From the NCBI GenBank assembly GCA_050014195.1, contig JBEKDT010000003.1, forward strand, positions 1 to 64,000: 64,000 nucleotides of DNA. Direction: 5' to 3'. Below the pieces are notes generated by a model, which was not told where the DNA came from, did no database searches, and saw only the letters and a list, made by a program, of their open reading frames with translations. Positions 51,263 to 64,000 of the stretch are shown in pieces (positions within the stretch are counted from its first letter, which is position 1; each line of letters opens with the position of its first letter). Made by a program: the position numbers and the translations under genes. The stretch comes from Desulfomonilia bacterium. GTDB lineage: Bacteria; Desulfobacterota; Desulfomonilia; UBA1062.

Positions 51263-52123
51263 ATGATTCGGTTACGGAAACACATGCAGGTTTTGGGCAT
51301 ACTGCTGGCTTTGGTATGCGCCTCAACAAGCACTTGGGCCCTTGCAGAAGTGAGCGATCTCTTCAAGGCGGCCTACGATGGTGATCTTTACCAAGTCAAG
51401 GCGTTGATCTCTGCCAAGGCCGATGTGAACGCTAAGATAGGCGACGGTGCCACCGCGTTGATGGCGGCATCGCAGAATGGCCACCTGGAGGTGGTGCAGG
51501 CGTTGATAACTGCCAAGGCCGATGTAAACGCTAAGGCTGCCAATGGCGACACTGCGTTGATACTGGCGTCGCAGCAAGGCCACCAGGAGGTGGTGCAGGC
51601 ACTTATCGATGCCAAGGCCGATGTAAACGCTAAGAAGGGCTATGGCAGTACGGCGTTAATGATGGCGTCGTTGGAGGGCCACCAAGGAGTGGTACAGGAG
51701 CTTATTTCTGCCAAGGCCGATGTGAACGCGAAGGCGGACGATGGCAGTACGGCGTTGATGGCTGCGTCGCTGGAGGGTAACCAAGGAGTGGTACAGGAGC
51801 TTATTGCTGCCAAGGCCGATGTGAACGCGAAGGCGGACGATGGCAGTACGGCGTTGATGATTGCGTCACTGGAGGGTCACCAGGTGGTGGTGCAAGCACT
51901 TATCATTGCCAAGGCCGATGTGAACGCCAAGACGGCTGAAGGTTACACGGCGTTGATAGTGGCATCTGAGAAGGGAAACCAGGGAGTGGTGAGACTGCTT
52001 ATTGCTGCCAAGGTCGATGTGAATGCCAAGACGGGCGATGGCACCACTGCGTTGATGATGGCGTCGCAGCAGGGCCACCAGGAGGTGGTGCAACTTCTCA
52101 AGAAGGCGGGCGCTGTTAAATAG
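51263..52123 (+). CDS. Secreted ankyrin-repeat protein (about 8 repeats)
   Basis: Signal peptide; 33-aa GxTALMxASxxGHxxVVQxLIxAKADVNAK units. Confidence 0.95.
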   Translation: MIRLRKHMQVLGILLALVCASTSTWALAEVSDLFKAAYDGDLYQVKALISAKADVNAKIGDGATALMAASQNGHLEVVQALITAKADVNAKAANGDTALILASQQGHQEVVQALIDAKADVNAKKGYGSTALMMASLEGHQGVVQELISAKADVNAKADDGSTALMAASLEGNQGVVQELIAAKADVNAKADDGSTALMIASLEGHQVVVQALIIAKADVNAKTAEGYTALIVASEKGNQGVVRLLIAAKVDVNAKTGDGTTALMMASQQGHQEVVQLLKKAGAVK

Positions 52124-52613
52124 CAAAGTATAGGGTCGCCCATTAAAGGTTCCTGTTTAATGCTGGCTCATCTGAAGATTTATGTGATAAATTTATGAGT
52201 GCTATCTCAGGATTCCAACCATAGATTTGATAATCATCGAAAAAGATGGGCATGGAAAAGCATAGATCACATACCATTTATTACGATTAGCCCAGATTGA
52301 AGATTTCTTCGAATGACCAATTTTGAGTATACCCAAAAACTGATGATCTCAAAACAAGATCTGCACAAATCATTATCCTTTTAGGGGAATACAAGGGCAA
52401 TTGTCAGATCTTATGTTAACTTTAGTGCTACTTCTGTATGATCAGATCTTAACTATTGCACCTAACGACTTAATAGGTATTTCCGTTTGCTGCTTGGTTT
52501 CCAGACGGTATTTCATTTTTTCAAGTATTACCGTTTGTACTCTCGCATGGTGATCGAAAGCAGTCAATCATTGACTTCAGGAAGAAACTGACCGTTGATG
52601 TTAAGGCCTACAT

Positions 52614-52845
52614 TCTTACCCCGGGACAACGCCACATGTGCCTCGTTTGATAATTCCCTGTTCCGCGATTCAAATTCCCTGATATGTTGAGTAGGGAATT
52701 CTTTTGCAACCCACTGGAATGAGTCATCATATCGATGCCACTTTTTTCATTTCGGAGCCAGAAACGACAAAATTCCTTGCAAATTCCCTGATAAACAGGG
52801 AATATGGTATAGAGAGTGGTTCGCAGTTGACTGCCAGCACCACCA
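52614..52845 (+). repeat. 232-bp att-like element, copy 2
   Basis: Direct repeat of 5132-5363; ends GGTTCGCAGTTGACTGCCAGCACCACCA. Confidence 0.9.
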
Positions 52846-52885
52846 TTTCATATTATAAATTCATATACTTATAAGTCTCATTTTT

Positions 52886-52907
52886 GATTGCCAACAGATT
52901 GCCAACA
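52886..52907 (+). repeat. Tandem 11-mer GATTGCCAACA x2 (candidate integrase arm sites); related pair at 53992-54013
   Basis: GATTGCCAACAGATTGCCAACA versus TTTTCCAACAAATTGCCAACA, each about 40-50 bp inside an att-like core. Confidence 0.6.
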
Positions 52908-53019
52908 CTTTTGCCTAGAAACCAGGTTACACTGTCGACTTTCTGAGTAGGGTATTTAACCTTTTGTCTGAGGATACCCCAGAGACTTTAAGACCTCCCT
53001 ATATTATCCCACATAACAC

Positions 53020-53046
53020 TTGACGTTTAACGCTAAGCGTTATACA
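53020..53046 (+). promoter_or_regulatory. higBA promoter with palindromic operator
   Basis: TTGACG followed by TAACGC-TAA-GCGTTA. Confidence 0.6.
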
Positions 53047-53054
53047 CATCTTAT

Positions 53055-53309
53055 ATGATAAAGACGTTTCGTTGCAAGGATACGCAAGCCCTATTCGAAG
53101 GTCGTACCCCTCGACGATTCAAGGCTTTTTGTGCAATAGCCGAACGTAAATTACAAATGTTAGACTCCGCCATATCCTTAGAGGATCTGAAAAGTCCACC
53201 CGGGAACCGTAGGGGACAATGGAGCATCAGAATAAACGACCAATGGCGGGTGTGCTTCAGGTTTGAAGAGGGAGAAGTATTGGATGTGGAAATAGTCGAT
53301 TACCACTAA
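53055..53309 (+). CDS. higB: HigB (RelE/ParE family) toxin, apparently with a short internal deletion
   Basis: MIKTFRCKDTQALF..PPGN..SIRINDQWRVCF..VEIVDYH. Confidence 0.85.
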   Translation: MIKTFRCKDTQALFEGRTPRRFKAFCAIAERKLQMLDSAISLEDLKSPPGNRRGQWSIRINDQWRVCFRFEEGEVLDVEIVDYH

Positions 53310-53319
53310 GGAGCGAGAG

Positions 53320-53625
53320 ATGAATATTAAAAATAACATGCGCCCCATTCATCCGGGAGAAATTCTCCGAGAGGAATTTCTTGTGCCTCTTGGAATAAGT
53401 GCACATGCCTTGGCGCTTGAGCTTAAAGTGCCAGCGCCTCGTATTTATGCTATCATGAACGAGCGCCGTGCAATTACCCCGGACACGGCTTTACGCCTTG
53501 CCAACTATTTTGGGACCACACCTGAATTCTGGCTCAACCTACAGACAGCCTATGATTTGAAAGTCGCTCAACGAAAGTTAGGACCTCTGATCAATAAAGA
53601 AGTGCATTCACGGAATGCAGCATAA
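53320..53625 (+). CDS. higA: HigA antitoxin
   Basis: IHPGEILREEFL, ITPDTALRLANYFGTTPEFWLNLQTAYDL. Confidence 0.93.
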   Translation: MNIKNNMRPIHPGEILREEFLVPLGISAHALALELKVPAPRIYAIMNERRAITPDTALRLANYFGTTPEFWLNLQTAYDLKVAQRKLGPLINKEVHSRNAA

Positions 53626-53663
53626 AGCTTGATGCTGAAAAAGAAGCTCGCTTAAAAAATATA

Positions 53664-53840
53664 ATGGGGTATGTTCTTAGTAATAAAGGCGACCTTCCAG
53701 GAGCGTTAACTTATAGCCAGCAGGCACTTGGGATAGATACTAAGGTCTTTGGCTCAGATCGTCCCATCGTTGCATCTGATTTGAAAAACATCAAACAGAT
53801 CCTTCAAGAAGAATCTCAAAAAATAACTGAACTCATGTGA
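53664..53840 (+). pseudogene. TPR-protein C-terminal remnant
   Basis: GYVLSNKGDLPGALTYSQQALGIDTKVFGSDRPIVASDLKNI fits a 42-aa kinesin-light-chain-type TPR. Confidence 0.6.
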
Positions 53841-54063
53841 ATAAATCTAAAAATGAACTAATAACACATGATCAAAGTCTAAGTGCACTTACCCTTGGTA
53901 TTATAGTTGGTGTTGGATTATTATGCTTTTTATTATTTTCTGGATACCAATACTACAGATCTCGTGGTTAGTTTTCAGTTGTTTAGATCCGATTTTCCAA
54001 CAAATTGCCAACAACATCAACTTATTAATAATATTGAATAATGATCTAAAAAAGGCCCAAAAC

Positions 54064-54091
54064 GAGGGTCCAAATCCCTCCACCTCCACCA
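54064..54091 (+). other. Displaced tmRNA (ssrA)-type 3' fragment, probable att core
   Basis: T-arm GAGGG-TCCAAAT-CCCTC then CACCTCC-A-CCA, which pairs with a GGGGGTG 5' end including the G3:U70 alanine determinant; no full gene directly upstream. Confidence 0.7.
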
Positions 54092-54382
54092 ATTAAATCA
54101 AGCAACGCGCCGGCTGGCGGATCGACGGCACGACCTGCTGCCCTTGAGGCCTGCGCGATTTTGCGCCAGATTCAGCCCGAAACCAAAATATGAAGTTCAA
54201 ATAATTAACACAAATTTGTTCAGAATAGACCCTGCTGAACAATATTGGCCTGCGTAAAAAAAGCATAATCCAGCAAAAAAAATCGAAATTTGGTTCCACC
54301 ACTGGTGAAGAGATGTTTATCCCATTGATATGAAGGGTTTTTTATCATAAAGCATTCAAGGTATGCTTAAGACAACGATTCA

Positions 54383-54398
54383 TGGCATGGTTCTGGCT
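54383..54398 (+). promoter_or_regulatory. Candidate sigma-54 (-24/-12) promoter
   Basis: TGGCATGGTTCTGGCT has GG-N10-GC spacing, about 110 bp before the operon. Confidence 0.5.
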
Positions 54399-54505
54399 GT
54401 ACATAAGGGGCAGATGATGATACAAAAGAAAATTGTTGCGCCGGTGAAAAGTGTGAACGGCCCGACTGGCTTGATTGATTTTTTACACCAAAGGAAACAA
54501 GATTT

Positions 54506-54946
54506 ATGAACAATCGGGCTTTGAAAACATATATTTTTTATTGCTCAAACAATCTTGAAGCAAGCCAGTTTTCTGGTTTATGTCACGGAAACGATGGGGA
54601 TGCGATCAAGACCATCAGTCTGCCCTGTTCGGGGAAAGTGGATATTCCTTACTTGATCAAGGCATTTGAAAACGGGGCGGACGGTGTGGCGATTGTGACC
54701 TGCAAAAAGAACGAGTGTCGCCACTTCGAGGGCAATCTGCGGGCGCGAAGACGCGCCGAGGCAGTCGAAGCGCTGCTGGAGGAAATCGGCGTGACCGCGG
54801 GCCGGATGGCTGTTTTTGAGTGCGGGAAACAGGACGCCGAATCGGTCCTCGGCGAAATCAAGCAGTTCATTGAACGCTTGAGAAATCTGCCCCCGACGTA
54901 TGCTCGAAGCGGCACCGCCAACAAACAGGAGAGCACGGTAGCATGA
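54506..54946 (+). CDS. MvhD/FlpD-like [2Fe-2S] subunit
   Basis: FYC, LPCSGKVD, AFENGADGV, CKKNECRHFEGN. Confidence 0.88.
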   Translation: MNNRALKTYIFYCSNNLEASQFSGLCHGNDGDAIKTISLPCSGKVDIPYLIKAFENGADGVAIVTCKKNECRHFEGNLRARRRAEAVEALLEEIGVTAGRMAVFECGKQDAESVLGEIKQFIERLRNLPPTYARSGTANKQESTVA

Positions 54947-55842
54947 AAGTTGACAGCAAACTCGCAAAAAAAATCGAGACGGGAGACTTTATCGTCACCG
55001 CCGAGTGTGCGCCCGGCGCCACTGCGTCAGGTGCAACCGCTGAGGCAGCTTTGAAAGCCCTGGGCAGCAAACCAGTGGCCGTCAATGTGGCTGACAATTC
55101 ACATGGGGTGGCGCTGTCGTCAATGGCCGCATCCGTGGCAGCGATGAAATTGGGTATTGAACCGGTCCTCCAAATGGTCACTCGCGACCGGAACCGCATC
55201 GCGTTACAGTCCGATTTGCTGGGAGCCGCCAGCTTGGGAATCAAGAATGTGCTCTGCATGTCCGGTTATCATCAGACACTGATCGGACGACCGGAATCAG
55301 TTAATGTATTTGATATCGATTCCATTCAGTTTATCGAGTTGACCAACCGGATGTCCGAAAATGGCGTGCTGGCCGACGGAACCAGCATAGACGGTCCGTT
55401 TCCAATGCTGGTGGGTGCTGCGGCAAATCCATTCCTGAAACCGCTCGAGCTGAACCTGCTCAGGCTGGGCCAAAAAGTCGAAGCCGGTGCCAGGTTTGTT
55501 CAAACTCACGCGGTATTTGACATTCAGGCCTTTGGCCAATGGCTTGACGCCGCCCGCAAAGAAGGCTTCACCAAAAAGACTGCCATTCTGGCCAGCGTTT
55601 ATCCCTTGGAAAGCGTGGCGGAAGCCCAAAAGCTCCGCGATACCTATGCCGAATTCTGCATTCCGGACGAAGTCATTGAACGGCTGAAAAAAGCAGGCGA
55701 TGCCGGTAAGAAAGAGGGCTTGGCCATTTGCGTTGAAACCATCAAGCAGCTTAAAGCGCTTACGGGTTTGCGCGGAATCCATATTCTTTCGGGTGGCAAG
55801 GAAGCAGTTGTGCCCGACTTGGTTGCCGCTTCCGGACTGTAG
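54943..55842 (+). CDS. metF: Methylenetetrahydrofolate reductase family protein
   Basis: VTAECAPG, QMVTRDRNRIALQSDLLGA, KVEAGARFVQT, GIHI. Confidence 0.82.
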   Translation: MKVDSKLAKKIETGDFIVTAECAPGATASGATAEAALKALGSKPVAVNVADNSHGVALSSMAASVAAMKLGIEPVLQMVTRDRNRIALQSDLLGAASLGIKNVLCMSGYHQTLIGRPESVNVFDIDSIQFIELTNRMSENGVLADGTSIDGPFPMLVGAAANPFLKPLELNLLRLGQKVEAGARFVQTHAVFDIQAFGQWLDAARKEGFTKKTAILASVYPLESVAEAQKLRDTYAEFCIPDEVIERLKKAGDAGKKEGLAICVETIKQLKALTGLRGIHILSGGKEAVVPDLVAASGL

Positions 55843-55857
55843 TAGCGTGGAGAGGTT

Positions 55858-57252
55858 ATGCCGGAAAAATATCACATCAAAACCCAGCCGGTTCCGCCGC
55901 GGCGGCCGCGCATAGGCAAACATGGCGTAGTAGACTGGCGTGAAGACTGCGCCCGGTGTCATAACTGCGTTAAAAAAGCCTGTGTCTATGACCGCTACCG
56001 GCAGGAGGCGGAATACATTCGCAACTTAAATGAAGTCGAGGCATTGTTTTTTGACTGCATGGGCTGTTTTTCCTGCGTGCAGGACTGCACCAAGGGCTTA
56101 TTACGCCTGTCAATAAACCCGGAGTATGAAAAACTCGGGAACAGTTACTGGAAACCCGACATCATAAAAACGACGTGGCTTCAGGCCGAAACCGCGAAAA
56201 TCCCGGTTTCCGGAGCTGGCTACCGGGGGCCGTTTTCCGGCAAGGGCTTCGATTCCATGTGGACGGACATGTCGGAGATTGTCCGCCCGACCCGCGACGG
56301 CATTCACGGACGGGAATACATCAGCACTTCGGTTGACATCGGCCGCAAGCCGCCGTTTCTGGCAATGAATGGAAACAAATCCACGGCCCTGCCACCGCTG
56401 GTCTCGATTCCGATGCCTTTGATCTTTGATTTGAGCTCTCCCGCGCACACGCTGCCTAAGCTTGATCCAATCATCGAACAGACCGCCGTCGACACCGGCC
56501 TGATCGCCCTCATGGACTCGCGTTACCGGCCGGCAAGCGACGCCCACCTGGAGAACATCGCATTTTATCTTGGCCCGGACAGTCCGAGCGTGCCGGATAC
56601 GATGCTGAAAAAAACCCGCCTGGTGGAAATCGCAGACAGCCAGGACGTGGCGAAGCGCATCAAGGCGATCAAAAAAATCCACCCGGAAATTGTCGTCACC
56701 ATCCGGGTGGAACTGACCGATGCGGGAATCGGACGCGCCATAGAGCTGGCGGGCTTAAAAGAGATTGAAGTGATCCACATCGTCTCCGATGCCAACGGCA
56801 ATGAGCTCACGGCGCAAAGCCCAAGGTTCATCAAGGACATGATCCGTCAGATTCATACCACGCTCATCGATAAGGGCATCCGGGATGAAATAACACTCAT
56901 GGCCGGCGGCGGCATCGCGCTGCCCGAGCACCTGGCCAAGGCCATTATCTGCGGCGCCGACCTGGTGACCATCAACCTGCCGCTCCTCGTCGCGCTGGAA
57001 TGTCATCTGTGCGACAGTTGTGAGCCCGAAACGACGTGCCCGGCCAAGCTGGAGAACATTGATTTCAACTACGGCGTGGGCCGGATGACGAACCTGATCG
57101 CGGCATGGCACGACCAGTTGATCGAGCTGATGGGTGCCATGGGCATGCGCGAGGTCCGCCGCCTGCGGGGCGACGTCGGCCGCGCCATGTTTTTCGAGAA
57201 CCTCGAGGAGGAAACATTTGGCAAGCTCTATGGAAAAAGAAAGACAGACTGA
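55858..57252 (+). CDS. Ferredoxin plus divergent glutamate-synthase FMN-barrel-like protein
   Basis: CARCHNCVKKAC, CMGCFSCVQDC, AGGGI..AKAIICGAD, CHLCDSC..CP. Confidence 0.8.
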   Translation: MPEKYHIKTQPVPPRRPRIGKHGVVDWREDCARCHNCVKKACVYDRYRQEAEYIRNLNEVEALFFDCMGCFSCVQDCTKGLLRLSINPEYEKLGNSYWKPDIIKTTWLQAETAKIPVSGAGYRGPFSGKGFDSMWTDMSEIVRPTRDGIHGREYISTSVDIGRKPPFLAMNGNKSTALPPLVSIPMPLIFDLSSPAHTLPKLDPIIEQTAVDTGLIALMDSRYRPASDAHLENIAFYLGPDSPSVPDTMLKKTRLVEIADSQDVAKRIKAIKKIHPEIVVTIRVELTDAGIGRAIELAGLKEIEVIHIVSDANGNELTAQSPRFIKDMIRQIHTTLIDKGIRDEITLMAGGGIALPEHLAKAIICGADLVTINLPLLVALECHLCDSCEPETTCPAKLENIDFNYGVGRMTNLIAAWHDQLIELMGAMGMREVRRLRGDVGRAMFFENLEEETFGKLYGKRKTD

Positions 57253-58798
57253 GGACATTCTGCCTGAGAACACGCGCAAGACGCTCGTGCCGCAGGAGCA
57301 AGTGCAGCGCCTCGTCAAACCCGCGCCGTCCCGCTATCGCAACGAAATTGCCAAGTATATCGTGCACCGCAGCCCAGACTGCAAACGCTGCGGCAAGTGC
57401 GTGGAGGTCTGCTCCTATGGCGTCCACGTCCACGAACCCGGGTTCAAATATTTCGGCGAGCCCGAGCATCACTTGTGCATCGGGCCTTCCTGCGAAAATA
57501 CGGATAAGTATTGCGTGGCCCATTGCCCTCAAGGGGCTTTGTCGATCCGGGAAAATCCCACGTTCACAACGCTCGGCGATTATCGCTGGACCGCGGATTT
57601 GATTCTGGCGACATGGAAGATGGCCGAGACCGGAGATGTACCGCCCGAGGCCTACGATTTCAACTACGAATGCGGCAATTCCGGCGGCGGCTTTGACCGG
57701 CTCCGGTTCAAATTCCCGGACAAGCCTCCCGTCGAGCTCGACGAAAGCGAGATCGACACGAGCATCTCGCTGAATAAGCGCGGCGACGGCCGGCCCGAAA
57801 TCAAGATTGATGTTCCCTGGTACGGCGGCGGCATGTCGTTCGGCTCGGTCAGCAACGTAACCCAGCTTTCAAAGGCCCGGGCGGCAGTTGCGTTCAACAC
57901 GTTCACCTGCACCGGTGAGGGTGGTTACATGGAGCGCATGCGGCCGTATGACGACCACGTCATCACACAGGTCGCCACAGGCCTGTTCGGCGTGCGTGAG
58001 GAAACCATCCAGCGCGTGCCCATCGTGGAATTCAAGTATGCCCAGGGCGCCAAGCCAGGCCTCGGCGGTCATCTGCTCGGCGACAAAAACACCATCGCCG
58101 TCGCCCGCATGCGCGAGGCGGTGCTCGGCATCTCCCTGTTCTCCCCGTTCCCATTCCACAGTGTCTATTCCATCGAAGACCACGCCAAGCACATTGAATG
58201 GATCAAGCACGTGAACCGGAGCGCCTTGATCTCGACGAAGGTTTCAACCCCGACGGACGTGGACATGGTGGCGGTGGGCAGTTATTCCGCCGGCACGCAC
58301 ATCGTCCACATTGACGGCGGCTACGGCGGGACCGGCGCGGCGCCGGACATCGCCAAGAAGAACATCGCCATGCCCATTGAATACGCCATCGGCAAGGTAC
58401 ACAATTTCCTCGAAGCCGAGGGCGTCCGCGATAAGGTGACGCTGATCGCCAGCGGCGGAATCCGCACGGCCCACGACATCGCCAAGGCCATCGCACTGGG
58501 CGCGGACGGGGTGGTCATCGGTACCTCGGAAATGGTGGCGCTGGGCTGTGTTCGGTGCAGCCGCTGCGAGAGCGGGCGGGGCTGTCCGCGGGGCATCGCC
58601 ACGACCGACCCCGAGCTTGCCGCCAAAATGAAAGTTGAATGGGGCACCCAGCGACTCATCAACCTTTACAGCGCCTGGCAGAAAACGCTGGTCAAAATTC
58701 TGCAGCGCCTCGGCCTCAAAAGCGTCAGCGAACTGCGCGGACGCACCGACCTCATGATGCATCTGGATTACACCAACGAGGTAATGACAGACAAATGA
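57230..58798 (+). CDS. Ferredoxin plus glutamate-synthase FMN-binding domain protein
   Basis: CKRCGKCVEVC, GGMSFGS, TGEGG, KYAQGAKPGLGGHL, SGGIRT..KAIALGAD, CVRCSRC..CPRGIAT; start moved to ATG 57230. Confidence 0.9.
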   Translation: MEKERQTEDILPENTRKTLVPQEQVQRLVKPAPSRYRNEIAKYIVHRSPDCKRCGKCVEVCSYGVHVHEPGFKYFGEPEHHLCIGPSCENTDKYCVAHCPQGALSIRENPTFTTLGDYRWTADLILATWKMAETGDVPPEAYDFNYECGNSGGGFDRLRFKFPDKPPVELDESEIDTSISLNKRGDGRPEIKIDVPWYGGGMSFGSVSNVTQLSKARAAVAFNTFTCTGEGGYMERMRPYDDHVITQVATGLFGVREETIQRVPIVEFKYAQGAKPGLGGHLLGDKNTIAVARMREAVLGISLFSPFPFHSVYSIEDHAKHIEWIKHVNRSALISTKVSTPTDVDMVAVGSYSAGTHIVHIDGGYGGTGAAPDIAKKNIAMPIEYAIGKVHNFLEAEGVRDKVTLIASGGIRTAHDIAKAIALGADGVVIGTSEMVALGCVRCSRCESGRGCPRGIATTDPELAAKMKVEWGTQRLINLYSAWQKTLVKILQRLGLKSVSELRGRTDLMMHLDYTNEVMTDK

Positions 58799-61461
58799 AC
58801 ACTGAATTGATCAATAAGCTGACCGGTTCAAGAAAACGACTCGCTGAGAGTCTTAAGTTATCCCCGATCCTTCGGAAGGAAGCAGAGGAAGGCGGCTGCG
58901 GCGTGGTCGGTTTCTGCTGCAGCGAGCCGGTTGCGGGCCGGCACATTTACGAACCGTCGCGCCAGATGCACAACCGCGGGAACGGCAAGGGCGGCGGCAT
59001 CGCCGCGGTGGGGTTCGTCCCGGAGCAGCTTGGGGTCAGCCGCGAGGTGCTGGGCACCCATTACCTGCTGAACGTGGCCTTCATCGACACTTCTTTGCGT
59101 CCGGAAATCGAAGAGGAGTTTATCAAGCCGTTCTTTGACGTCGCCGCCTCTGCGCAGTTCGACAAGGTGGACGACTGGAAATCCGTGCCGGGCCTTGAGG
59201 TGCTCCCGCCGGATGTCTGCCGTTACTTTGTACGCGTCAAGCCGCAGGTGCTCTTCGAGTTCATCGAGAAGAACGGCCTGCAGGCGCTCGACCGCGGCGA
59301 GGCGGAGGACGAATTCGTCAACCAGAACAGCTTCAGCCTCAATCAGAAGTATTACGCGTCCCTGGGCGAAAAACGCGCCTTCGTGCTCTCGCACGGCCGG
59401 GATATCATGATCCTTAAAGTTGTCGGCTATGCCGAAGCCATCGTGAAGTATTACAAAATCGAGGATCTGTGCGCCCACATATGGATCGCCCACCAGCGAT
59501 TCCCCACCAAGGGCCGCGTCTGGCACCCCGGCGGCGCCCATCCGTTCGCGGCCATTGACATGGCACTGGTGCACAACGGCGACTTTGCCAACTACCATTC
59601 GGTGACCGAATATCTCAAGCAGCGCCACATCTATCCCCAGTTTCTCACCGATACGGAAGTGTCCGCACAGCTCTTCGACCTGCTCAGCAGGACCTACCAT
59701 TACCCGCTGGAATACATCATCGAAGCCCTGGCGCCGACCACGGAGCTGGACTTCGACCGGCTCGACCCTGAGAAGCAGAAGATTTACCGGGCCATCCAGG
59801 CCACCCACATGCACGGCTCGCCCGACGGCCCCTGGTTCTTCATCATTGCCCGCAACCTCGCCCGCGTCAAACAGTTCCAGTTAATGGGCATCACCGACAC
59901 CGCGATGCTGCGGCCCCAGGTGTTCGCCTTCTGCGACGGCGAAGTCCAGGTGGGGCTGATCGCCTCGGAAAAGCAGGCCATTGACGCCACGCTCATGAGC
60001 CTGTCGAAGGATGACAAGCGGATCTGTCCCGTGGCGGACCGCTACTGGAATGCGCGCGGCGGCAGCTATGACGATGGCGGGGCGTTCATTTTCAACCTGA
60101 AGAAAGATCCGGCCGGCAAAATCCGGATCACCTGCACGGACAAATTCGGCACGCAGGTCGCTATGCCGGGCGGTACCGAGTCGTGCGATTTTTCCAAGGA
60201 ATTTTCATTATCCTCCGAATCGAGGGAGACTATACAGACAATAATCAGCGAGAGATTTATACCCGGCAACAGCGTCGCGATTTTTGAAATGATCCGCGGC
60301 CTCATACCGAACTCGACGTTTGACGAGATCGATCTGGCGTGCCGGCAGATCATCAACCAGGCCAGGGACTCTTCCAAGACGGCCACGGCGATAGAAGTCC
60401 TGACGCTGCTCAACGACCGGCGCTACTCGACCGGCTCGAAGAGACGCAGCCACGTGCTCCACATCGTGCGCACCGAGCTGAACGCTCTGTTCTCAAGCCT
60501 CCCCAAAATCAGCGACAAGGATGCCGCAAAGGGCGCGTATCGCCTGGTTGATTTTACGTCGCGCGGACACCTGCGGGGGCCGCAAGGCATGGAAAACACG
60601 CTGGTGATCGACGCCGCCGGATTTCCACCCGAAGGATACGACTGCGACGCCGCGCTGCTGGTTGACGCTTTTATGTTAGGCTGGCGCCGTTTCATCTGCT
60701 TCAACTGCATCGGCCAGCGGTACACCGGCTGCGGCCTCGGTCCGGAAACCGGGGATGTTACCATCGACGTGTACGGCAGCAGCGGCGATTATCTCGGTTC
60801 GGGCATTGACGGGCTGACGATCACGGTGCACGGCAACGCCCAGGACCAACTGGGGCAGATCGTCAAGCTGGGGAAAATGGTCATCCACGGCGACGTGGGC
60901 CAGACCTTCATGTACGGTGCCAAGGGCGGCGAGGTCTATGTGCTCGGCAACGCGGCGGGAAGGCCGCTCATCAACTCCGTGGGCCGGCCCAAGGTGGTCA
61001 TCAACGGCACCTGCCTCGACTTCCTCGGCGAGTCCTTCATGGCCGGCGACCCGCTCAATGGCGGCGGCTTCGTGATCTTAAACGGCGTCAAGCTCGATGA
61101 CGAAGGGAAACCGGTTCCGCTTCTTGATCCTTACCCGGGCAGCAACCTATTTTCGCTGGCTTCGGGCGGCGCCATTTTTGTCCGCGACCCGGGAAAGACC
61201 CTGGTGGACCAGCAGCTGAACGGCGGCCGGTTCGCCAAGGTGACCGACGCCGACTGGGAGCTGATCCTGCCGTTCCTGGAGGAGAACCAGAAACATTTCG
61301 GGATAACCGTCAGTGCGCTTTTGACCGTGGATGGCAAGCAGCTCGAGCCGTGCCGGGTGTATCGCAAGGTTGTTCCCGGCAATGTAAAGGACATTGTCCT
61401 GGAGGACACCGACGATGTCTGGGCTGAAGAACCGATTGAAGAACTGGCCGTGAATAAATAA
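58795..61461 (+). CDS. Glutamate-synthase-like class II amidotransferase plus GXGXG-domain protein
   Basis: EEGG-CGVVG, AHQRFPT, AHPF, VHNG, TDTE; C-terminal GSSGDYLG/GNAQD/GDVG/GNAAG repeats; ATGA overlap with the previous gene. Confidence 0.88.
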   Translation: MNTELINKLTGSRKRLAESLKLSPILRKEAEEGGCGVVGFCCSEPVAGRHIYEPSRQMHNRGNGKGGGIAAVGFVPEQLGVSREVLGTHYLLNVAFIDTSLRPEIEEEFIKPFFDVAASAQFDKVDDWKSVPGLEVLPPDVCRYFVRVKPQVLFEFIEKNGLQALDRGEAEDEFVNQNSFSLNQKYYASLGEKRAFVLSHGRDIMILKVVGYAEAIVKYYKIEDLCAHIWIAHQRFPTKGRVWHPGGAHPFAAIDMALVHNGDFANYHSVTEYLKQRHIYPQFLTDTEVSAQLFDLLSRTYHYPLEYIIEALAPTTELDFDRLDPEKQKIYRAIQATHMHGSPDGPWFFIIARNLARVKQFQLMGITDTAMLRPQVFAFCDGEVQVGLIASEKQAIDATLMSLSKDDKRICPVADRYWNARGGSYDDGGAFIFNLKKDPAGKIRITCTDKFGTQVAMPGGTESCDFSKEFSLSSESRETIQTIISERFIPGNSVAIFEMIRGLIPNSTFDEIDLACRQIINQARDSSKTATAIEVLTLLNDRRYSTGSKRRSHVLHIVRTELNALFSSLPKISDKDAAKGAYRLVDFTSRGHLRGPQGMENTLVIDAAGFPPEGYDCDAALLVDAFMLGWRRFICFNCIGQRYTGCGLGPETGDVTIDVYGSSGDYLGSGIDGLTITVHGNAQDQLGQIVKLGKMVIHGDVGQTFMYGAKGGEVYVLGNAAGRPLINSVGRPKVVINGTCLDFLGESFMAGDPLNGGGFVILNGVKLDDEGKPVPLLDPYPGSNLFSLASGGAIFVRDPGKTLVDQQLNGGRFAKVTDADWELILPFLEENQKHFGITVSALLTVDGKQLEPCRVYRKVVPGNVKDIVLEDTDDVWAEEPIEELAVNK

Positions 61462-61476
61462 CCGGAGATTACTATC

Positions 61477-62043
61477 GTGATAACCATCAAGAAAAACAGG
61501 ATCGGCTATGGGCTGAAGAGCGCCGTCGAGGAGCTGACCGGCGTTGACGGAAACGTCTGCCTGCAGTGCAAGAAATGCTCGAGCGGATGCCCGGTGGCAA
61601 AGCTCGCCAGAACCCGGCCATCGGAAATCATGCGTCTGCTGCACCTCGGCGCCGGGGAGGAACTGCTCGAGCGCGACCTCGTCTGGCTGTGCGTCTCGTG
61701 CGAAACCTGCTCGTCGCGCTGCCCCATGCGCATTGATGTGGCCGCTGTCATGGACTCGCTCCGCCGACTTGCCTTAGAGCGGGGCGCGCCGAAACCTCAA
61801 GGCGACATGCCGCTGTTCAACCGCGCATTCTTGAAGACGGTCGAGATCTTCGGCCGCCCCTACGATATCGCCATGATCACCGCCTACAAGATCGGCACGG
61901 GCAAATTGATGGACGACACGGAAAAATTCCCGGCCATGCTGAAGAAGGGAAAAATCGCGCTGCTGCCGCCGCTTAATGGCGACAGGAAAACCGTGAAACG
62001 TATTTTCAAAAAAACAAAACAAAACCGAGGAACCCGAGCATGA
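61477..62043 (+). CDS. hdrC: HdrC-like Fe-S subunit
   Basis: CLQCKKCSSGCP and WLCVSCETCSSRCP. Confidence 0.88.
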   Translation: MITIKKNRIGYGLKSAVEELTGVDGNVCLQCKKCSSGCPVAKLARTRPSEIMRLLHLGAGEELLERDLVWLCVSCETCSSRCPMRIDVAAVMDSLRRLALERGAPKPQGDMPLFNRAFLKTVEIFGRPYDIAMITAYKIGTGKLMDDTEKFPAMLKKGKIALLPPLNGDRKTVKRIFKKTKQNRGTRA

Positions 62044-62918
62044 AATACGCCTACTATCCCGGATGCTCGACTGAATCCACAGCCCGCGACATGAACCAGT
62101 CCACGTATGCGGTCGCCCGGGCTCTTAAGCTCGATTTCGAGGAACCCAAAGGCTGGACCTGCTGCGGCGCCACCGCGGGTCACCAGACCGATCGAGAGCT
62201 CGCCGTTGCATTGTCCGCCGCCAACCTGGCCAAGGTCCAGGACATGAAGTTGGACATGGTCGTCAATTGCGCCGCCTGCTACAACCGGATGAAGGTAGCC
62301 AACCACGAAATTTCCACCCACGCCGCTGTCCGCCGGAACGTCCGTGACGCGCTCGAGAGGGATTACGACGGGACGGTCAAGGTCCGCCACCTCCTCGAGG
62401 TGCTCCTGGAGGATATCGGCCTGCCAACCCTCACCAAGTCCCTCAAACGAACGCTGAACGGCCTCAAGGTGGCCTGCTACTACGGCTGCCTGCTGGTCCG
62501 TCCGCCGGAGATTTTACAGTTCGACGACCCTGAGAATCCGAAGTCTCTCGACCGCCTGGTGACTGCGATGGGTGGCGTTAGCCTCGACTGGCCCTGCAAG
62601 GTCGATTGCTGCGGCGGCAGCCTGTCGCTGTCGCGGACCGACGTGGTAGTCCAGCTCACCGAGTCCATTCTCGATATGGCGGTCCAGTCGGGCGCCGAGT
62701 GCATCGCGGTCAGCTGTCCCATGTGCCAGATTAACCTCGATGTGCGGCAGCAGGACATCAACAAGCTCTCGGGCAGGAACTACCGCATGCCGGTGATTTA
62801 CATCACCCAGCTCCTCGGGCTTTGCCTGGGCCTTGACGCGAGCGAGCTCGGATTTGAAAAGCTGATGGTCCCCGCTGAAAACGTCTTAAAAAAAATGGAA
62901 GTAAACTCTCATGAGTAA
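62040..62918 (+). CDS. hdrB: HdrB-like CCG-domain subunit
   Basis: YYPGC, WTCCG, CAAC, YYGC, CCGG, CPMC. Confidence 0.9.
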   Translation: MKYAYYPGCSTESTARDMNQSTYAVARALKLDFEEPKGWTCCGATAGHQTDRELAVALSAANLAKVQDMKLDMVVNCAACYNRMKVANHEISTHAAVRRNVRDALERDYDGTVKVRHLLEVLLEDIGLPTLTKSLKRTLNGLKVACYYGCLLVRPPEILQFDDPENPKSLDRLVTAMGGVSLDWPCKVDCCGGSLSLSRTDVVVQLTESILDMAVQSGAECIAVSCPMCQINLDVRQQDINKLSGRNYRMPVIYITQLLGLCLGLDASELGFEKLMVPAENVLKKMEVNSHE

Positions 62919-64000
62919 ATCAGACGACAAGAAAATCGGCGCGGTGCTGGTGCAGGGCGGCGGTATTGCCGGCGTCCAGGCGGCGCTCGATCTGGCAAAC
63001 AGCGGCTTCAAGGTTTATCTCATCGAGCGCGACGCAGCCATCGGCGGCATGATGGCGCACCTCGACAAGACCTTCCCGACCGGCGACTGTGCCACCTGCA
63101 TCGTCTCGCCCAAGCTCGTCGAATGCGCGCGGAACCTGAACATCGAGATCCTGACTCTTTCCGAGCTGGTGGGACTGGAAGGCGTACCCGGCCGGTTCAG
63201 GGCTACCGTCCTGCGGCATCCGCGGTATGTGGACGAGAACAAATGTACCGGGTGCAGCGAATGCACTTTAGTCTGTCCTGTGGACATTCCGGACGAGTTC
63301 AACCGCTGCCTGGGGACACGCAAGGGCATTGCCAAGCTTTACGCTCAGGCCACCCCGAACATTTTCGGCATCCTGAAAAACGGCCACTCGCCCTGCAAAA
63401 TGAAGTGCCCGGCCAGGGTGAACGTCCAGGGCTACGTGCAGCTCATCAAGCAGAAGGAATATGTCAAGGCGGTGGAGCTCATCAGAGAGCGGAACCCGCT
63501 TTCGGCCATCTGCGGCCGCATCTGCACCCACCCTTGCGAGTCCGAATGCACGAGGATGGGTGTCGACGCCCCTATCGCCATCCGGCTGCTGAAGCGGTTC
63601 GCATCGGACAAAGAAATGGAGATGCTCGCAGCTGGCGAGCTGGCCCTTCCGGAGGAAAAAGTAACCGCACCGGATGCCAAGAAGGTCGCGATCATCGGCG
63701 GCGGCCCGGCCGGTCTTACAGCAGCCAATGATCTGGCTGACGCCGGTTTCAGCGCCACGGTGTTCGAAGCCATGCCTGAAGCCGGCGGTATGCTCCGCTA
63801 CGGGATCCCAGAGTATCGCCTGCCCAAGAAGGTGCTCGACCACGAGATCGAGATCATTCGCCGCAAGGGCGTGACATTTGTATACAACTGCCGTATAGGA
63901 GGGGACGTCACTTTCGAGTCCCTCCGCAAGGATTATGCCGCTATCTTCATCTCTGCCGGCGCACAGAAAAGCCGCAAGCTCGGCGTTCAAGGCGAGGACA
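62911..64000 (+). CDS. hdrA: HdrA-like flavoprotein with GltD-like NAD(P)H module (HdrL type), runs off the window
   Basis: GGGIAG, LDKTFPTGDCATCI, CTGCSECTLVCP, then PCKMKCP..CGRICTHPCESEC, GGGPAG, GGMLRYGIPEYRLP. Absent from the ORF track because no stop falls in the window. Confidence 0.9.
   Translation, partial: MSKSDDKKIGAVLVQGGGIAGVQAALDLANSGFKVYLIERDAAIGGMMAHLDKTFPTGDCATCIVSPKLVECARNLNIEILTLSELVGLEGVPGRFRATVLRHPRYVDENKCTGCSECTLVCPVDIPDEFNRCLGTRKGIAKLYAQATPNIFGILKNGHSPCKMKCPARVNVQGYVQLIKQKEYVKAVELIRERNPLSAICGRICTHPCESECTRMGVDAPIAIRLLKRFASDKEMEMLAAGELALPEEKVTAPDAKKVAIIGGGPAGLTAANDLADAGFSATVFEAMPEAGGMLRYGIPEYRLPKKVLDHEIEIIRRKGVTFVYNCRIGGDVTFESLRKDYAAIFISAGAQKSRKLGVQGED

What the first reader, a model, noticed from the sequence alone, without database searches (positions are those of the whole stretch)
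54506..64000. Operon joining split glutamate-synthase subunits with MetF, MvhD and HdrABC: candidate electron-bifurcating glutamate synthase or C1-nitrogen complex
Seen: eight tightly packed or overlapping genes, mvhD-like, metF, FeS-FMN(1), FeS-FMN(2), GATase+GXGXG, hdrC, hdrB, hdrA. The HdrA contains a GltD-like module, and no separate gltD or metV is present in the visible part. Established: GltB needs GltD or ferredoxin as electron donor; HdrABC-MvhD-MetFV complexes are proposed to bifurcate electrons in acetogens; split GltB-like subunits also form N-methylglutamate synthase. Inference: either glutamate synthesis is wired to flavin-based bifurcation and methylene-THF/disulfide redox, or this is an anaerobic methylamine/N-methylglutamate-type route feeding THF. 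I know of no biochemical characterisation of this combination.
Basis: partly seen in the sequence, partly recalled or inferred. Interest (0 to 1): 0.75.

Follow-up and report, generated by a model that had tools for sequence, protein, structure and literature searches.

The report
Glutamate synthase built into Hdr–MetF operon
A ten-gene operon, passed by gene transfer among many kinds of anaerobic bacteria, joins a glutamate-making enzyme to an electron-splitting redox complex and a folate reductase; I found no study of this combination, and it may save energy when cells take up nitrogen.

Summary
The eight genes are real, tightly packed and of the stated families. The window cuts the operon. 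HdrA runs on to 1499 aa, and a second mvhD and metV follow, so "no metV" is an edge effect.

All ten genes recur in the same order in 33 of 73 related loci, from MAGs carrying about nine phylum labels. Eight more loci hold them in a circular permutation. In this genome the operon is a high-GC island.

The three Glt proteins look like a working glutamine-dependent glutamate synthase:
- the amidotransferase and FMN-site motifs are conserved;
- in other genomes amtB-glnB-glnA, glnA or nrpR lie beside the cluster.

The constant core across relatives is MvhD-Glt1-Glt2-Glt3. MetVF is a frequent add-on, and HdrCBA with an NAD(P)H module a rarer one.

Best reading: a GOGAT with no reductase subunit of its own, sharing an NAD(P)H-fed Hdr core with a Moorella-type methylene-THF reductase. 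Ferredoxin reduction by bifurcation is plausible but not shown. The methylamine/N-methylglutamate reading is not supported.

My literature searches found no description of this linkage. I judge it a new variant of known kinds, of high interest.

The parts
54383..54398 (+). sigma-54-like -24/-12 element TGGCATGGTTCTGGCT, 108 nt upstream of mvhD1 (weak evidence)
   Evidence: It is the only match in the 64-kb window, but 0.8 matches are expected by chance. It is kept in two congeners, G003 and G006, and not in G002. A looser pattern occurs upstream of the cluster in 7 of 49 other loci, against about 0.4 expected. The strict pattern occurs in 0 of 49.
54506..54946 (+). mvhD1: MvhD-like [2Fe-2S] electron-connector subunit (146 aa)
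   Evidence: PF02662, E 2.5e-26. C13, C41, C66 and C71 are invariant in 19 sequences. An MvhD gene precedes glt1 or metV in 18 of 20 loci from 20 families of the own phylum.
54943..55842 (+). metF: MetV-dependent (acetogen-type) methylene-THF reductase catalytic subunit (299 aa)
   Evidence: PF02219, 93.9 bits. It aligns with human and Thermus MTHFR chains. Longer relatives are fused to MetV, to the CdhD/AcsD family or to FolD. A second, canonical metF (306 bits) lies at contig C4:99887.
55858..57252 (+). glt1: non-catalytic iron-sulfur paralogue of the GltB FMN domain (464 aa)
   Evidence: It matches only positions 181-368 of PF01645. It lacks the GGMSFG...KYAQGAKPG...DGxxGGTGAA loops of Glt2. 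It keeps 8 N-terminal Cys plus C382/C385/C388/C394 invariant. Some relatives are fused to Glt2 or to a GlcD-like dehydrogenase.
57230..58798 (+). glt2: FMN/2-oxoglutarate (synthase) subunit with N-terminal two-cluster ferredoxin domain (522 aa)
   Evidence: PF01645, E 2.5e-91. E 2.3e-52 to the Azospirillum GltB chain 2vdc_A over chain residues 857-1171, with the AQGAKPG and GGTGA motifs and the Cys cluster aligned. 43% of positions are at least 95% conserved in 66 sequences.
58795..61461 (+). glt3: fusion of class-II (Ntn) glutamine amidotransferase and GXGXG beta-helix domain (888 aa)
   Evidence: PF13522 and PF01493. It aligns to GlmS and FwdC chains. EGGCGVxGF (Cys35), MHNRGNGKGGG, HQRxPT, HNG and TDTEV are at least 95% conserved in 75 sequences.
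61477..62043 (+). hdrC: two-[4Fe-4S] subunit (188 aa)
   Evidence: Fer4_17 and Fer4_8; TIGR03290, E 7.9e-17.
62040..62918 (+). hdrB: CCG-domain subunit (292 aa)
   Evidence: PF02754, two stretches; TIGR03288, E 1.4e-58. The CCG and CxxC motifs are conserved in 63 sequences.
62911..64000 (+). hdrA (large form), cut by the window end. The full protein has 1499 aa and ends at contig position 67410. It is followed by mvhD2 (67422-67868) and metV (67856-68533), both outside the window.
   Evidence: Residues 1-160 are the start of HdrA; 160-641 are a complete NfnB/GltD-like module (4ylf_B, E 1.8e-76) with GGGNVA at its nucleotide fold; 632-902 are the rest of the first HdrA unit; 924-1499 are a second HdrA unit with a C-terminal ferredoxin domain. 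mvhD2: PF02662, E 5.7e-49. metV: PF12225, E 1.5e-36.

Best explanation
The window holds the first eight genes of a ten-gene, horizontally acquired operon for one iron-sulfur flavoenzyme system.

The parts:
- Core: a glutamine-dependent glutamate synthase of the split 'archaeal' kind. Glt3 hydrolyses glutamine. Glt2 reduces 2-iminoglutarate at FMN. Glt1 is a non-catalytic three-cluster electron wire. MvhD1 is a [2Fe-2S] connector.
- This unit has no reductase subunit of its own.
- In this operon it is joined in cis to a Moorella-type (type IV) methylene-THF reductase, MetVF-HdrCBA-MvhD. That enzyme's tandem HdrA carries an inserted GltD/NfnB-like NAD(P)H module.

Proposed working (inference):
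1. NAD(P)H is oxidised at the inserted module.
2. Electrons pass through the HdrA flavins and the two MvhD proteins to two exergonic acceptor sites: 2-oxoglutarate plus glutamine at Glt2, and methylene-THF at MetF.
3. The surplus free energy is probably used to reduce ferredoxin by flavin-based bifurcation. That would recover part of the cost of GS-GOGAT nitrogen assimilation.

Shown here: gene content, conserved linkage, intact catalytic motifs, and nitrogen-gene context in relatives.
Inferred only: physical association, the donor, the direction of electron flow, and bifurcation.
For: Linkage:
- Domain content is as stated. The genes overlap or lie at most 15 nt apart.
- Of 73 related loci, 33 hold all ten genes in the window's order. 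Five more do so with the first MvhD scoring as MvhD2. Eight hold the same genes circularly permuted, with the tenth gene beyond the fetched stretch. Most of the remaining loci are cut by contig ends.
- The subunits' identities to the window co-vary across loci, Spearman 0.81-0.94.
- In the own genus, MetV occurs only in the four cluster-bearing genomes (G000 among them) plus two fragmentary ones. In G007 the cluster is riddled with stop codons.
- The operon has GC 0.594 against 0.502 for the genome. None of 559 14-kb windows reaches that value.

The Glt unit as a GOGAT:
- The GATase nucleophile, oxyanion and glutamine-binding motifs are at least 95% conserved in 75 sequences. The Glt2 FMN/2-OG motifs are conserved.
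- The operon has no gltD. The only NAD(P)H module is the one inside HdrA.
- In two lineages that insert is replaced by NuoE/NuoF-like genes while the rest of the cluster is kept.
- Glt1-Glt2 fusions and GlcD-like-Fer4-Glt1 fusions exist.

Nitrogen context:
- amtB-glnB-glnA lies directly upstream on the same strand in L094.
- GS lies within 10 kb in 3 of 73 loci and in 6 of 20 loci from 20 families. The three GS that I scanned pass the GlnA equivalog cut-off.
- nrpR is adjacent in 5 of 73 and 2 of 20 loci.
- One Chloroflexia MAG (G044) has no other strong PF01645 hit.
Against: - There are no experimental data. No RNA run was listed.
- The links are facultative. In 20 loci from 20 families, 7 have no MetVF nearby and 16 have no Hdr. 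In 14 of 15 loci analysed from family f2 the cluster is mvhD-metV-metF-glt1-glt2-glt3 with no Hdr. The Glt unit can therefore work without Hdr in cis, perhaps with ferredoxin, and might do so here too.
- Both acceptors have a higher potential than NAD(P)H (recalled values). The model therefore does not explain why MetVF is attached, nor what HdrBC reduces.
- The own genome also holds a housekeeping GOGAT and a canonical MetF, so no function is forced on this operon.
- Two positions next to the 2-OG site differ from Azospirillum GltB: PGLGGH in place of PGEGGQ. The housekeeping copy differs there as well.
- The sigma-54-like site is weak evidence.
Confidence: 0.5

Rival explanations
1. There are two independent enzymes that are merely co-regulated: a ferredoxin-dependent archaeal-type GOGAT (MvhD1-Glt1-Glt2-Glt3) and a type IV MTHFR (MetVF-HdrCBA-MvhD2). 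They share neither electrons nor a complex.
For: - The minimal form MvhD-Glt1-Glt2-Glt3, without MetVF or Hdr, is common: 7 of 20 loci.
- MetVF alone is a ferredoxin-dependent enzyme in Clostridium ljungdahlii (abstract of PMC8760232).
- Glt1 and Glt2 carry ferredoxin-like domains.
Against: - The genes are interleaved. metF and metV are separated by eight genes, and the glt genes lie between metF and hdrC. This arrangement, or a circular permutation of it, is kept across about nine phylum labels.
- The genes overlap as if translationally coupled.
- The ten genes are gained, lost and decay as one unit.
- The only GltD-like module lies inside HdrA.
Confidence: 0.2
2. Methyl-THF is the electron donor. 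MetVF oxidises methyl-THF (about -200 mV). The electrons go to the GOGAT site, either directly (as in the six-gene form without Hdr) or by bifurcation to GOGAT as the high-potential acceptor and NAD(P)+ as the low-potential one. Glutamine plus 2-oxoglutarate would then be the missing second redox partner of this subfamily of type IV MTHFR.
For: - MetVF lies directly next to glt1 in 13 of 20 loci from 20 families. In 14 of 15 analysed f2 loci it does so with no NAD(P)H module present.
- Glt1 is fused to an electron-donating GlcD-like dehydrogenase in P0145 and P0156, which suggests Glt1 is an entry point for donor modules.
- The potentials (recalled) allow it.
Against: - Nitrogen assimilation is a small sink compared with catabolic C1 flux.
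- Three of five cluster-bearing genomes from other phyla showed no acetyl-CoA synthase, so a large methyl-THF supply is not evident there.
- No assay exists.
Confidence: 0.13
3. It is an anaerobic methylamine route. The Glt trio acts as an N-methylglutamate/gamma-glutamylmethylamide-type synthase, and the methyl group ends on THF via MetF.
For: - MgsABC has the same three parts: GATase-like, GXGXG and FMN domain (recalled).
- Conserved glutaminase motifs would fit it as well.
- A C1 enzyme is attached.
Against: - The adjacent GS genes I scanned are bona fide GlnA: TIGR00653 at 529-673 bits against a cut-off of 429. They fall below the type III cut-off.
- amtB, glnB and nrpR are neighbours.
- No conserved flanking dehydrogenase was found.
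- The nearest named clusters to Glt2 are all labelled glutamate synthase.
- It is the only strong GOGAT candidate in G044.
Confidence: 0.05
4. The Glt proteins are non-catalytic scaffold or electron-transfer subunits of the MTHFR-Hdr complex, as FwdC is a structural GXGXG subunit.
For: - Glt1 has lost the substrate loops.
- The best solved-structure match of the GXGXG part is FwdC.
Against: - The catalytic motifs of Glt2 and Glt3 are at least 95% conserved over sequences only 55-60% identical overall.
- The trio occurs without MetVF or Hdr, next to glnA.
Confidence: 0.03

Closest known systems
Type IV methylene-THF reductase MetVF-HdrCBA-MvhD of Moorella thermoacetica (Mock et al. 2014, seen only as described in PMC8760232, and PMC9012536)
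   Same: metF, metV, hdrC, hdrB, hdrA and mvhD lie in one cluster. HdrA is a tandem form and the presumed site of NAD(P)H oxidation. The sub-order hdrC-hdrB-hdrA-mvhD-metV is kept.
   Different: Three glutamate-synthase genes and a second mvhD are inserted. HdrA carries a full NfnB/GltD-like insert. metF is separated from metV. The cluster also occurs in genomes where no acetyl-CoA synthase was found (3 of 5).
Split 'archaeal-type' glutamate synthase. The example here is the own genome's housekeeping locus at contig C7:2222-7348, next to glnA. The methanogen examples are recalled.
   Same: A roughly 520-aa subunit with a ferredoxin domain and the FMN domain, plus separate GATase and GXGXG parts. 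The nearest named clusters to Glt2 are of this kind.
   Different: GATase and GXGXG are fused in one 888-aa protein. An extra degenerate paralogue (Glt1) and an MvhD belong to the unit. There is no GltD fusion on the GXGXG protein, which the housekeeping copy has.
NADPH-GOGAT GltBD (Azospirillum, PDB 2vdc/1ea0)
   Same: FMN-domain motifs, the Cys cluster at the position of the 3Fe-4S site, the Ntn amidotransferase chemistry, and a GltD-like NAD(P)H module in the system.
   Different: The large subunit is split into three genes. No PF04898 central domain reaches Pfam's cut-off: the weak Glt2 hit at 31 bits overlaps its FMN domain. The GltD-like module is an insert in HdrA and not a separate small subunit.
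NfnAB transhydrogenase, and HdrA forms with a GltD insert ('type III HdrA', PMC12054007, passage seen; HdrL of Desulfobacterium autotrophicum, PMC2702500, passages seen)
   Same: The NfnB/GltD-like module has two clusters, FAD and a nucleotide fold (4ylf_B, E 1.8e-76). An HdrA-GltD fusion followed by mvhD matches the description of HdrL.
   Different: There is no NfnA (PyrK-like) partner in the operon. Here the fusion is embedded in a cluster with MetVF and a GOGAT.
N-methylglutamate synthase MgsABC (recalled; no reference sequence was on hand)
   Same: The three-part make-up: GATase-like, GXGXG and FMN domain.
   Different: There is no gmaS or N-methylglutamate dehydrogenase context. The neighbours are ammonium-assimilation genes.
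Methanogen Hdr supercomplexes that feed a catalytic module directly. The PDB 7bkb HdrA chain matched and the FwdC chain 5t5i_C; the biology is recalled.
   Same: An Hdr core with MvhD-type connectors beside a module that contains a GXGXG protein.
   Different: The donors, the acceptors and all catalytic subunits are different. This is an analogy only.

Membership tests
Glutamate synthase (GOGAT) catalytic unit | Class-II (Ntn) glutamine amidotransferase domain with nucleophile Cys, Asn-Gly oxyanion hole and Asp for the glutamine amino group | tested here: met
   Cys35 in EGGCGVxGF, plus HNG and TDTEV, are at least 95% conserved in 75 sequences. The domain aligns to GlmS chains. A 34-residue leader would have to be removed; this is inferred.
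Glutamate synthase (GOGAT) catalytic unit | FMN/2-oxoglutarate domain (PF01645) with an iron-sulfur cluster site | tested here: met
   Glt2 matches PF01645 at E 2.5e-91 and 2vdc_A at E 2.3e-52. The motifs are conserved. The C-x2-C-x2-C-x5-C site is invariant.
Glutamate synthase (GOGAT) catalytic unit | C-terminal GXGXG beta-helix domain | tested here: met
   PF01493, E 2.9e-15, in Glt3 residues 638-809.
Glutamate synthase (GOGAT) catalytic unit | Central domain (PF04898) between the amidotransferase and FMN domains | tested here: inconclusive
   There is no separate central domain. Glt1 is a degenerate FMN-domain paralogue that might take this place.
Glutamate synthase (GOGAT) catalytic unit | A defined reductant: GltD small subunit with NAD(P)H, or ferredoxin | tested here: inconclusive
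   The operon has no gltD gene. A GltD-like module lies inside HdrA. Ferredoxin-like domains sit on Glt1 and Glt2. The donor cannot be told from sequence.
Glutamate synthase (GOGAT) catalytic unit | Genomic association with ammonium-assimilation genes | tested here: met
   This does not hold in the window itself. In relatives: amtB-glnB-glnA directly upstream in L094; GS nearby in 3 of 73 and 6 of 20 loci; nrpR adjacent in 5 of 73 and 2 of 20 loci. The three GS scanned pass TIGR00653.
Glutamate synthase (GOGAT) catalytic unit | Glutamine plus 2-oxoglutarate gives 2 glutamate (enzyme activity) | not testable with these tools
   Needs an anaerobic enzyme assay.
Type IV MTHFR (MetVF-HdrCBA-MvhD) | metF, metV, hdrC, hdrB, hdrA and mvhD co-located | tested here: met
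   metV and mvhD2 lie outside the window, at contig positions 67422-68533.
Type IV MTHFR (MetVF-HdrCBA-MvhD) | [quoted passage not shown] | not testable with these tools
   Only the domains are seen: an NAD(P)-binding fold GGGNVA in the insert and the MTHFR barrel.
N-methylglutamate synthase MgsABC | Co-location with gamma-glutamylmethylamide synthetase (GS-like) and N-methylglutamate dehydrogenase | tested here: not met
   The adjacent GS genes scanned pass the GlnA equivalog model and fall below the type III GS cut-off. Clustering of flanking ORFs from the 73 loci found only regulators shared by 5 or more loci. The dehydrogenase family itself was not searched for.
N-methylglutamate synthase MgsABC | Phylogenetic placement with MgsA and MgsC | not tested
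   No Mgs reference sequences could be obtained with the tools. The NCBIfam scan listed no such model.
NfnAB transhydrogenase | NfnB (GltD-like) together with an NfnA (PyrK-like) partner | tested here: not met
   An NfnB-like module is present in HdrA. No NfnA-like gene is in the operon.
Methanogen HdrABC-MvhAGD | MvhA/MvhG hydrogenase subunits next to MvhD and HdrABC | tested here: not met
   None of the ten genes is a hydrogenase subunit.

The most novel reading that the evidence does not exclude
Glutamine plus 2-oxoglutarate is the long-sought second redox partner of this branch of type IV (Hdr-linked) methylene-THF reductases. One particle would couple the methyl-/methylene-THF couple, NAD(P)H and the strongly exergonic GOGAT reaction by flavin-based bifurcation. 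One possible form is methyl-THF electrons split between GOGAT and NAD(P)+. Another is NAD(P)H electrons split between GOGAT or MetF and ferredoxin. Either way, nitrogen assimilation would pay for an otherwise uphill redox step, and C1 metabolism and nitrogen metabolism would be mechanically linked in many anaerobes.
Probability: 0.15. Interest if true: 0.9.

Novelty: new variant of a known kind. Interest (0 to 1): 0.72.

Why it matters
GOGAT with NAD(P)H releases far more free energy than it needs (recalled thermodynamics). An Hdr-coupled form that saves part of it as reduced ferredoxin would change energy budgets for nitrogen assimilation in energy-starved anaerobes.

The system is common:
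- Glt3 relatives gave 7652 hits at E <= 1e-20 among the 8000 candidates scored.
- Glt1 is found in 91 of 301 sampled genomes of the own phylum.
- The full ten-gene form occurs in MAGs with about nine phylum labels.
- The window sequence is held in many peat and wetland metagenomes.

It also offers a concrete, testable candidate for the unknown second partner of type IV MTHFR (PMC8760232). And it defines a GOGAT subunit set, MvhD-Glt1-Glt2-Glt3, whose electron donor is unknown.

Tried and rejected
Tools that gave nothing:
- Complex prediction (MvhD1 with Glt1, alignments A4 and A3) was not available; nothing was folded.
So there is no fold search and no test of whether Glt1 stands in for the GltB central domain.
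- The look-up of sequencing runs listed 24 DNA holders (peat and wetland metagenomes) and no RNA holder. I did not use read laying, because contigs cannot show expression.
- Rfam found nothing in 52000-64000.

Leads that weakened or failed:
- Strict sigma-54 pattern upstream of other loci: 0 of 49. The looser pattern gives 7 of 49, so I keep it as weak evidence only.
- Conserved flanking genes: none beyond regulators.
- The 134-aa ORF after metV is AT-rich, has no Pfam match, and was found in only one relative. I do not count it as part of the operon.
- P0272, an apparent MetF-Glt1 fusion, comes from a single contig and has a frameshift-like tail. I do not use it.
- The shared N-terminal domain of the regulators gave only atlas leads at 0.90 or below.

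Literature:
- Searches found no paper describing MetF or Hdr linked to glutamate-synthase genes.
- The legend term 'MetF-ABC' in PMC2702500 could not be tied to these genes.
- Mock et al. 2014 is not held.
- Supplements were not consulted.

Full report
**Observation**

The ORF list and the Pfam and NCBIfam scans confirm eight co-directional genes at 54506-64000.
- mvhD1 (146 aa, PF02662).
- metF (299 aa, PF02219).
- glt1 (464 aa): a ferredoxin-like N-terminus and only the C-terminal half of the glutamate-synthase FMN domain.
- glt2 (522 aa): a ferredoxin-like N-terminus and a full PF01645 domain, E 2.5e-91.
- glt3 (888 aa): a class-II amidotransferase fused to a GXGXG domain.
- hdrC, hdrB, and the start of hdrA.

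I placed the starts of glt2 (57230) and glt3 (58795) at internal ATGs. Related loci align from residue 1 of these models. Neighbouring genes overlap by 4-23 nt or are 11-15 nt apart. Terminator-like sites are not enriched. No Rfam family matches.

**The operon runs past the window**

The window is the first 64 kb of a 270-kb contig, so the operon is cut.
- hdrA continues to contig position 67410 and encodes 1499 aa.
- A second mvhD (148 aa) and metV (225 aa, PF12225) follow it.
- The next ORF (134 aa) is AT-rich and has no family match. A convergent chemotaxis-receptor gene ends the unit.

The large HdrA is built as follows:
- residues 1-160: the start of an HdrA unit;
- residues 160-641: a complete NfnB/GltD-like module, with two clusters, FAD and a nucleotide fold reading GGGNVA;
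- residues 632-902: the rest of the first HdrA unit;
- residues 924-1499: a second full HdrA unit with a C-terminal ferredoxin domain.

This is a tandem HdrA, as Chadwick et al. describe for Moorella (PMC9012536, passage seen). It also carries a GltD-like insert, as in "type III HdrA" (PMC12054007) and HdrL (PMC2702500).

**Conservation of the linkage**

In 41 related genomes a full-length Glt3 (E = 0) occurs as follows:
- G000 and 3 of its 14 congeners;
- one other genus of the family;
- all 16 genomes of a second family, f2.

In G007 the gene is broken by seven stop codons.

The three congeners carry all ten genes in the same order at 74-97% identity. In f2, 14 of the 15 loci I fetched show mvhD-metV-metF-glt1-glt2-glt3 with no hdr genes; the fifteenth is cut by a contig end. 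HdrL-like genes lie elsewhere in those genomes.

The 73 loci kept carry these labels:

| Label | Loci |
|---|---|
| Verrucomicrobiota | 16 |
| Planctomycetota, all groups | 23 |
| Thermodesulfobacteriota and 'delta' groups | 14 |
| Chloroflexota | 6 |
| Bacteroidota/Ignavibacteriota | 5 |
| Leptospiraceae, Pseudomonadota, Latescibacterota, Desantisbacteria | 1 each |
| Unlabelled | 5 |

Gene order in those 73 loci:
- 33 hold all ten genes in the window's order.
- 5 more do so with the first MvhD scoring as MvhD2.
- 8 hold a circular permutation (glt3-hdrCBA-mvhD2-metV-mvhD1-metF-glt1), with glt2 beyond the fetched stretch.
- Most of the others are cut by contig ends.
- L061 has 10 kb downstream without hdr.

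Other signs that the genes travel as one unit:
- Subunit identities to the window co-vary across loci, Spearman 0.81-0.94. The loci are related to one another, so this is not an independent test.
- In the own genus, MetV is found only in the cluster-bearing genomes and two fragmentary ones.
- The operon has GC 0.594 against 0.502 for the genome. None of 559 14-kb windows reaches that value. The flanks are at 0.41 and 0.33, and a HigB/HTH pair lies upstream.
- The nearest relatives outside the genus (up to 85-90% per protein) carry Verrucomicrobiota labels, whereas f2, of the own class, is only about 57% identical.

The ten genes therefore behave as one transferable unit.

**What the Glt proteins are**

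Glt3:
- It keeps the Ntn-amidotransferase signature. EGGCGVxGF (nucleophile Cys35), MHNRGNGKGGG, HQRxPT, HNG and TDTEV are at least 95% conserved in 75 sequences that are otherwise only 55-60% identical.
- A 34-residue leader would have to be removed. This is inferred by analogy with bacterial GltB, which I recall.

Glt2:
- It aligns with Azospirillum GltB residues 857-1171 and keeps the AQGAKPG, GGTGAAP and GGI motifs and a four-Cys site.
- Two positions differ from GltB (PGLGGH in place of PGEGGQ). The housekeeping copy in the same genome also differs there.

Glt1:
- It lacks the substrate and FMN loops.
- It keeps twelve invariant cluster cysteines and a strongly conserved segment, GFDSMWTDMSEIVRPTRDGIHGREYIST.
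- I read it as a non-catalytic electron wire.
- Glt1-Glt2 fusions exist, as do fusions of a GlcD-like FAD dehydrogenase plus a ferredoxin domain to Glt1. This fits a role as the port through which donor modules feed Glt2.

**Nitrogen context**

The own genome has a separate split GOGAT. Its genes are a GAF-sigma-54 activator, a 376-aa protein, a 544-aa Fer4+FMN subunit and a 778-aa GXGXG+GltD-like fusion, directly followed by glnA. It also has a canonical metF. The operon is thus an accessory second system.

In other genomes the cluster sits among ammonium-assimilation genes.
- In L094, amtB, glnB and glnA lie directly upstream on the same strand.
- GS genes lie upstream in L043 and L100.
- nrpR is adjacent on the same strand in five loci, 22-23 nt from mvhD1 in two of them.
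- GAF-sigma-54 activators lie upstream in five Pirellulales-labelled loci.

In a sample of the own phylum, Glt1 was found in 91 of 301 genomes and 57 of 200 genera. In 20 loci from 20 families:
- all 20 hold a Glt1 gene. It is contiguous with glt2-glt3 wherever the fetched stretch reaches them (L121 is cut by its contig end just after glt1; the two permuted loci, L129 and L137, place glt3 at the far end of the cluster);
- 18 have an MvhD gene in front of glt1 or metV;
- 13 include MetV and/or MetF;
- 4 include Hdr;
- 6 have GS within 10 kb;
- 2 have nrpR.

The three GS proteins I scanned pass the GlnA equivalog model and fall below the type III model. One Chloroflexia MAG has no other strong PF01645 hit, while four other carriers have a canonical long GltB as well.

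These results support a real GOGAT. They argue against the N-methylglutamate route.

**The supply module**

- In L043 the GltD-like insert of HdrA is replaced by separate NuoE-like and NuoF-like genes and a NuoG-HdrA fusion, while both MvhD, Glt1-3, HdrB and MetV stay.
- L056 shows a NuoF-like gene at the same place in an otherwise window-like cluster.

Swapping one NAD(P)H-oxidising module for another suggests that NAD(P)H is the donor of the Hdr-containing forms. Acetyl-CoA synthase is present in the own genome. It was found in only 2 of 5 carriers from other phyla, so the cluster is not tied to the Wood-Ljungdahl pathway.

**How it probably works**

Shown:
- a constant core MvhD-Glt1-Glt2-Glt3 with intact catalytic motifs;
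- frequent attachment of MetVF, and rarer attachment of HdrCBA with an NAD(P)H module;
- inheritance as one unit.

Inferred:
- In the window's form NAD(P)H enters at the HdrA insert.
- The tandem HdrA offers two MvhD docking sites, which would explain the two mvhD genes.
- MvhD2 leads to MetV and MetF, since the mvhD2-metV adjacency is kept in all forms.
- MvhD1 leads to Glt1 and Glt2, since mvhD directly precedes glt1 where MetVF is absent.

With recalled potentials (NAD(P)H about -320 mV, methylene-THF about -200 mV, 2-oxoglutarate plus glutamine about -60 mV), both acceptor reactions are exergonic. The GOGAT reaction is exergonic enough to drive ferredoxin reduction by bifurcation. This is attractive but untested.

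The model does not explain what HdrBC reduces, or why MetVF is attached. A bolder alternative treats methyl-THF as the donor and GOGAT as the pulling acceptor. That would give type IV MTHFRs the "second, still unknown electron acceptor" named in PMC8760232.

**Novelty and limits**

Eight full-text searches found no description of glutamate-synthase genes linked to MetF, MvhD or Hdr. Subscription journals and supplements were not covered.

Not available or not found:
- physical association and folds could not be tested;
- no RNA data were listed;
- MAG taxon labels may be imprecise;
- no Mgs reference sequences were available for a tree.

I rate this a new variant of known kinds: a GOGAT of new subunit make-up, embedded in a type IV MTHFR-Hdr operon. 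It is real, widespread and worth biochemical work.

Noticed in passing
window 53055-53625: A HigB-like toxin gene (84 aa, PF05015) and an HTH_3 antitoxin-like gene (101 aa) lie about 880 nt upstream of the operon, in AT-rich DNA. This fits an island border.
   Followed up: no
window 51263-52123: A 286-aa protein made almost wholly of ankyrin repeats (PF12796, E 4.5e-65), which is unusual for a bacterium.
   Followed up: no
window 46567-49113 (minus strand): Two adjacent ORFs (502 aa and 342 aa) match different parts of the glycogen-phosphorylase family, the second also DUF3417. This may be a split or frameshifted alpha-glucan phosphorylase gene.
   Followed up: no
contig C3:68590-68994 (L004:8590-8994), just outside the window: An AT-rich 134-aa ORF after metV has no Pfam match. 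It was found again only in congener G003, at 98% identity.
   Followed up: partly
own genome, contig C7:321-8737 (L113): The housekeeping nitrogen locus holds a GAF-sigma-54 activator, a 376-aa protein with no Pfam hit (probably the amidotransferase subunit), a Fer4+FMN subunit, a 778-aa fusion of GXGXG with a GltD-like reductase and a ferredoxin domain, and then glnA and carA. The GXGXG-GltD fusion is itself an unusual GOGAT architecture.
   Followed up: partly
L058:8262-9596 (minus), L052:833-3154 and related regulators: HTH-cupin regulators (Desulfobacterales-labelled loci) and GAF-sigma-54 activators (Pirellulales-labelled loci) next to the cluster share an N-terminal domain of about 260 aa, 31-34% identical, with no Pfam match. 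The atlas gives only weak KaiC/RAD55-like leads. It may be a sensor specific to this cluster.
   Followed up: partly
proteins P0145 and P0156 (representative library): Proteins of about 1200 aa fuse a GlcD-like FAD dehydrogenase (PF01565, PF02913), a two-cluster ferredoxin domain and a Glt1 domain. This hints at GOGAT variants fed by oxidation of a 2-hydroxy acid.
   Followed up: no
G007:C7:195994-198567 (L034): A congener carries a decayed copy of the cluster. glt3 holds 7 stop codons, glt1 and glt2 are in fragments, and no MetV was found in that genome.
   Followed up: partly
L016 (G003:C1): In this congener the hdrA and glt2 matches are each split into two adjacent pieces. These may be frameshifts or assembly errors.
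   Followed up: no
f2 genomes G028-G036: These genomes give 19-23 HdrA-like matches each. Several have single in-frame TGA codons near the N-terminus, which may encode selenocysteine. They also hold 3-4 MetV copies each.
   Followed up: no
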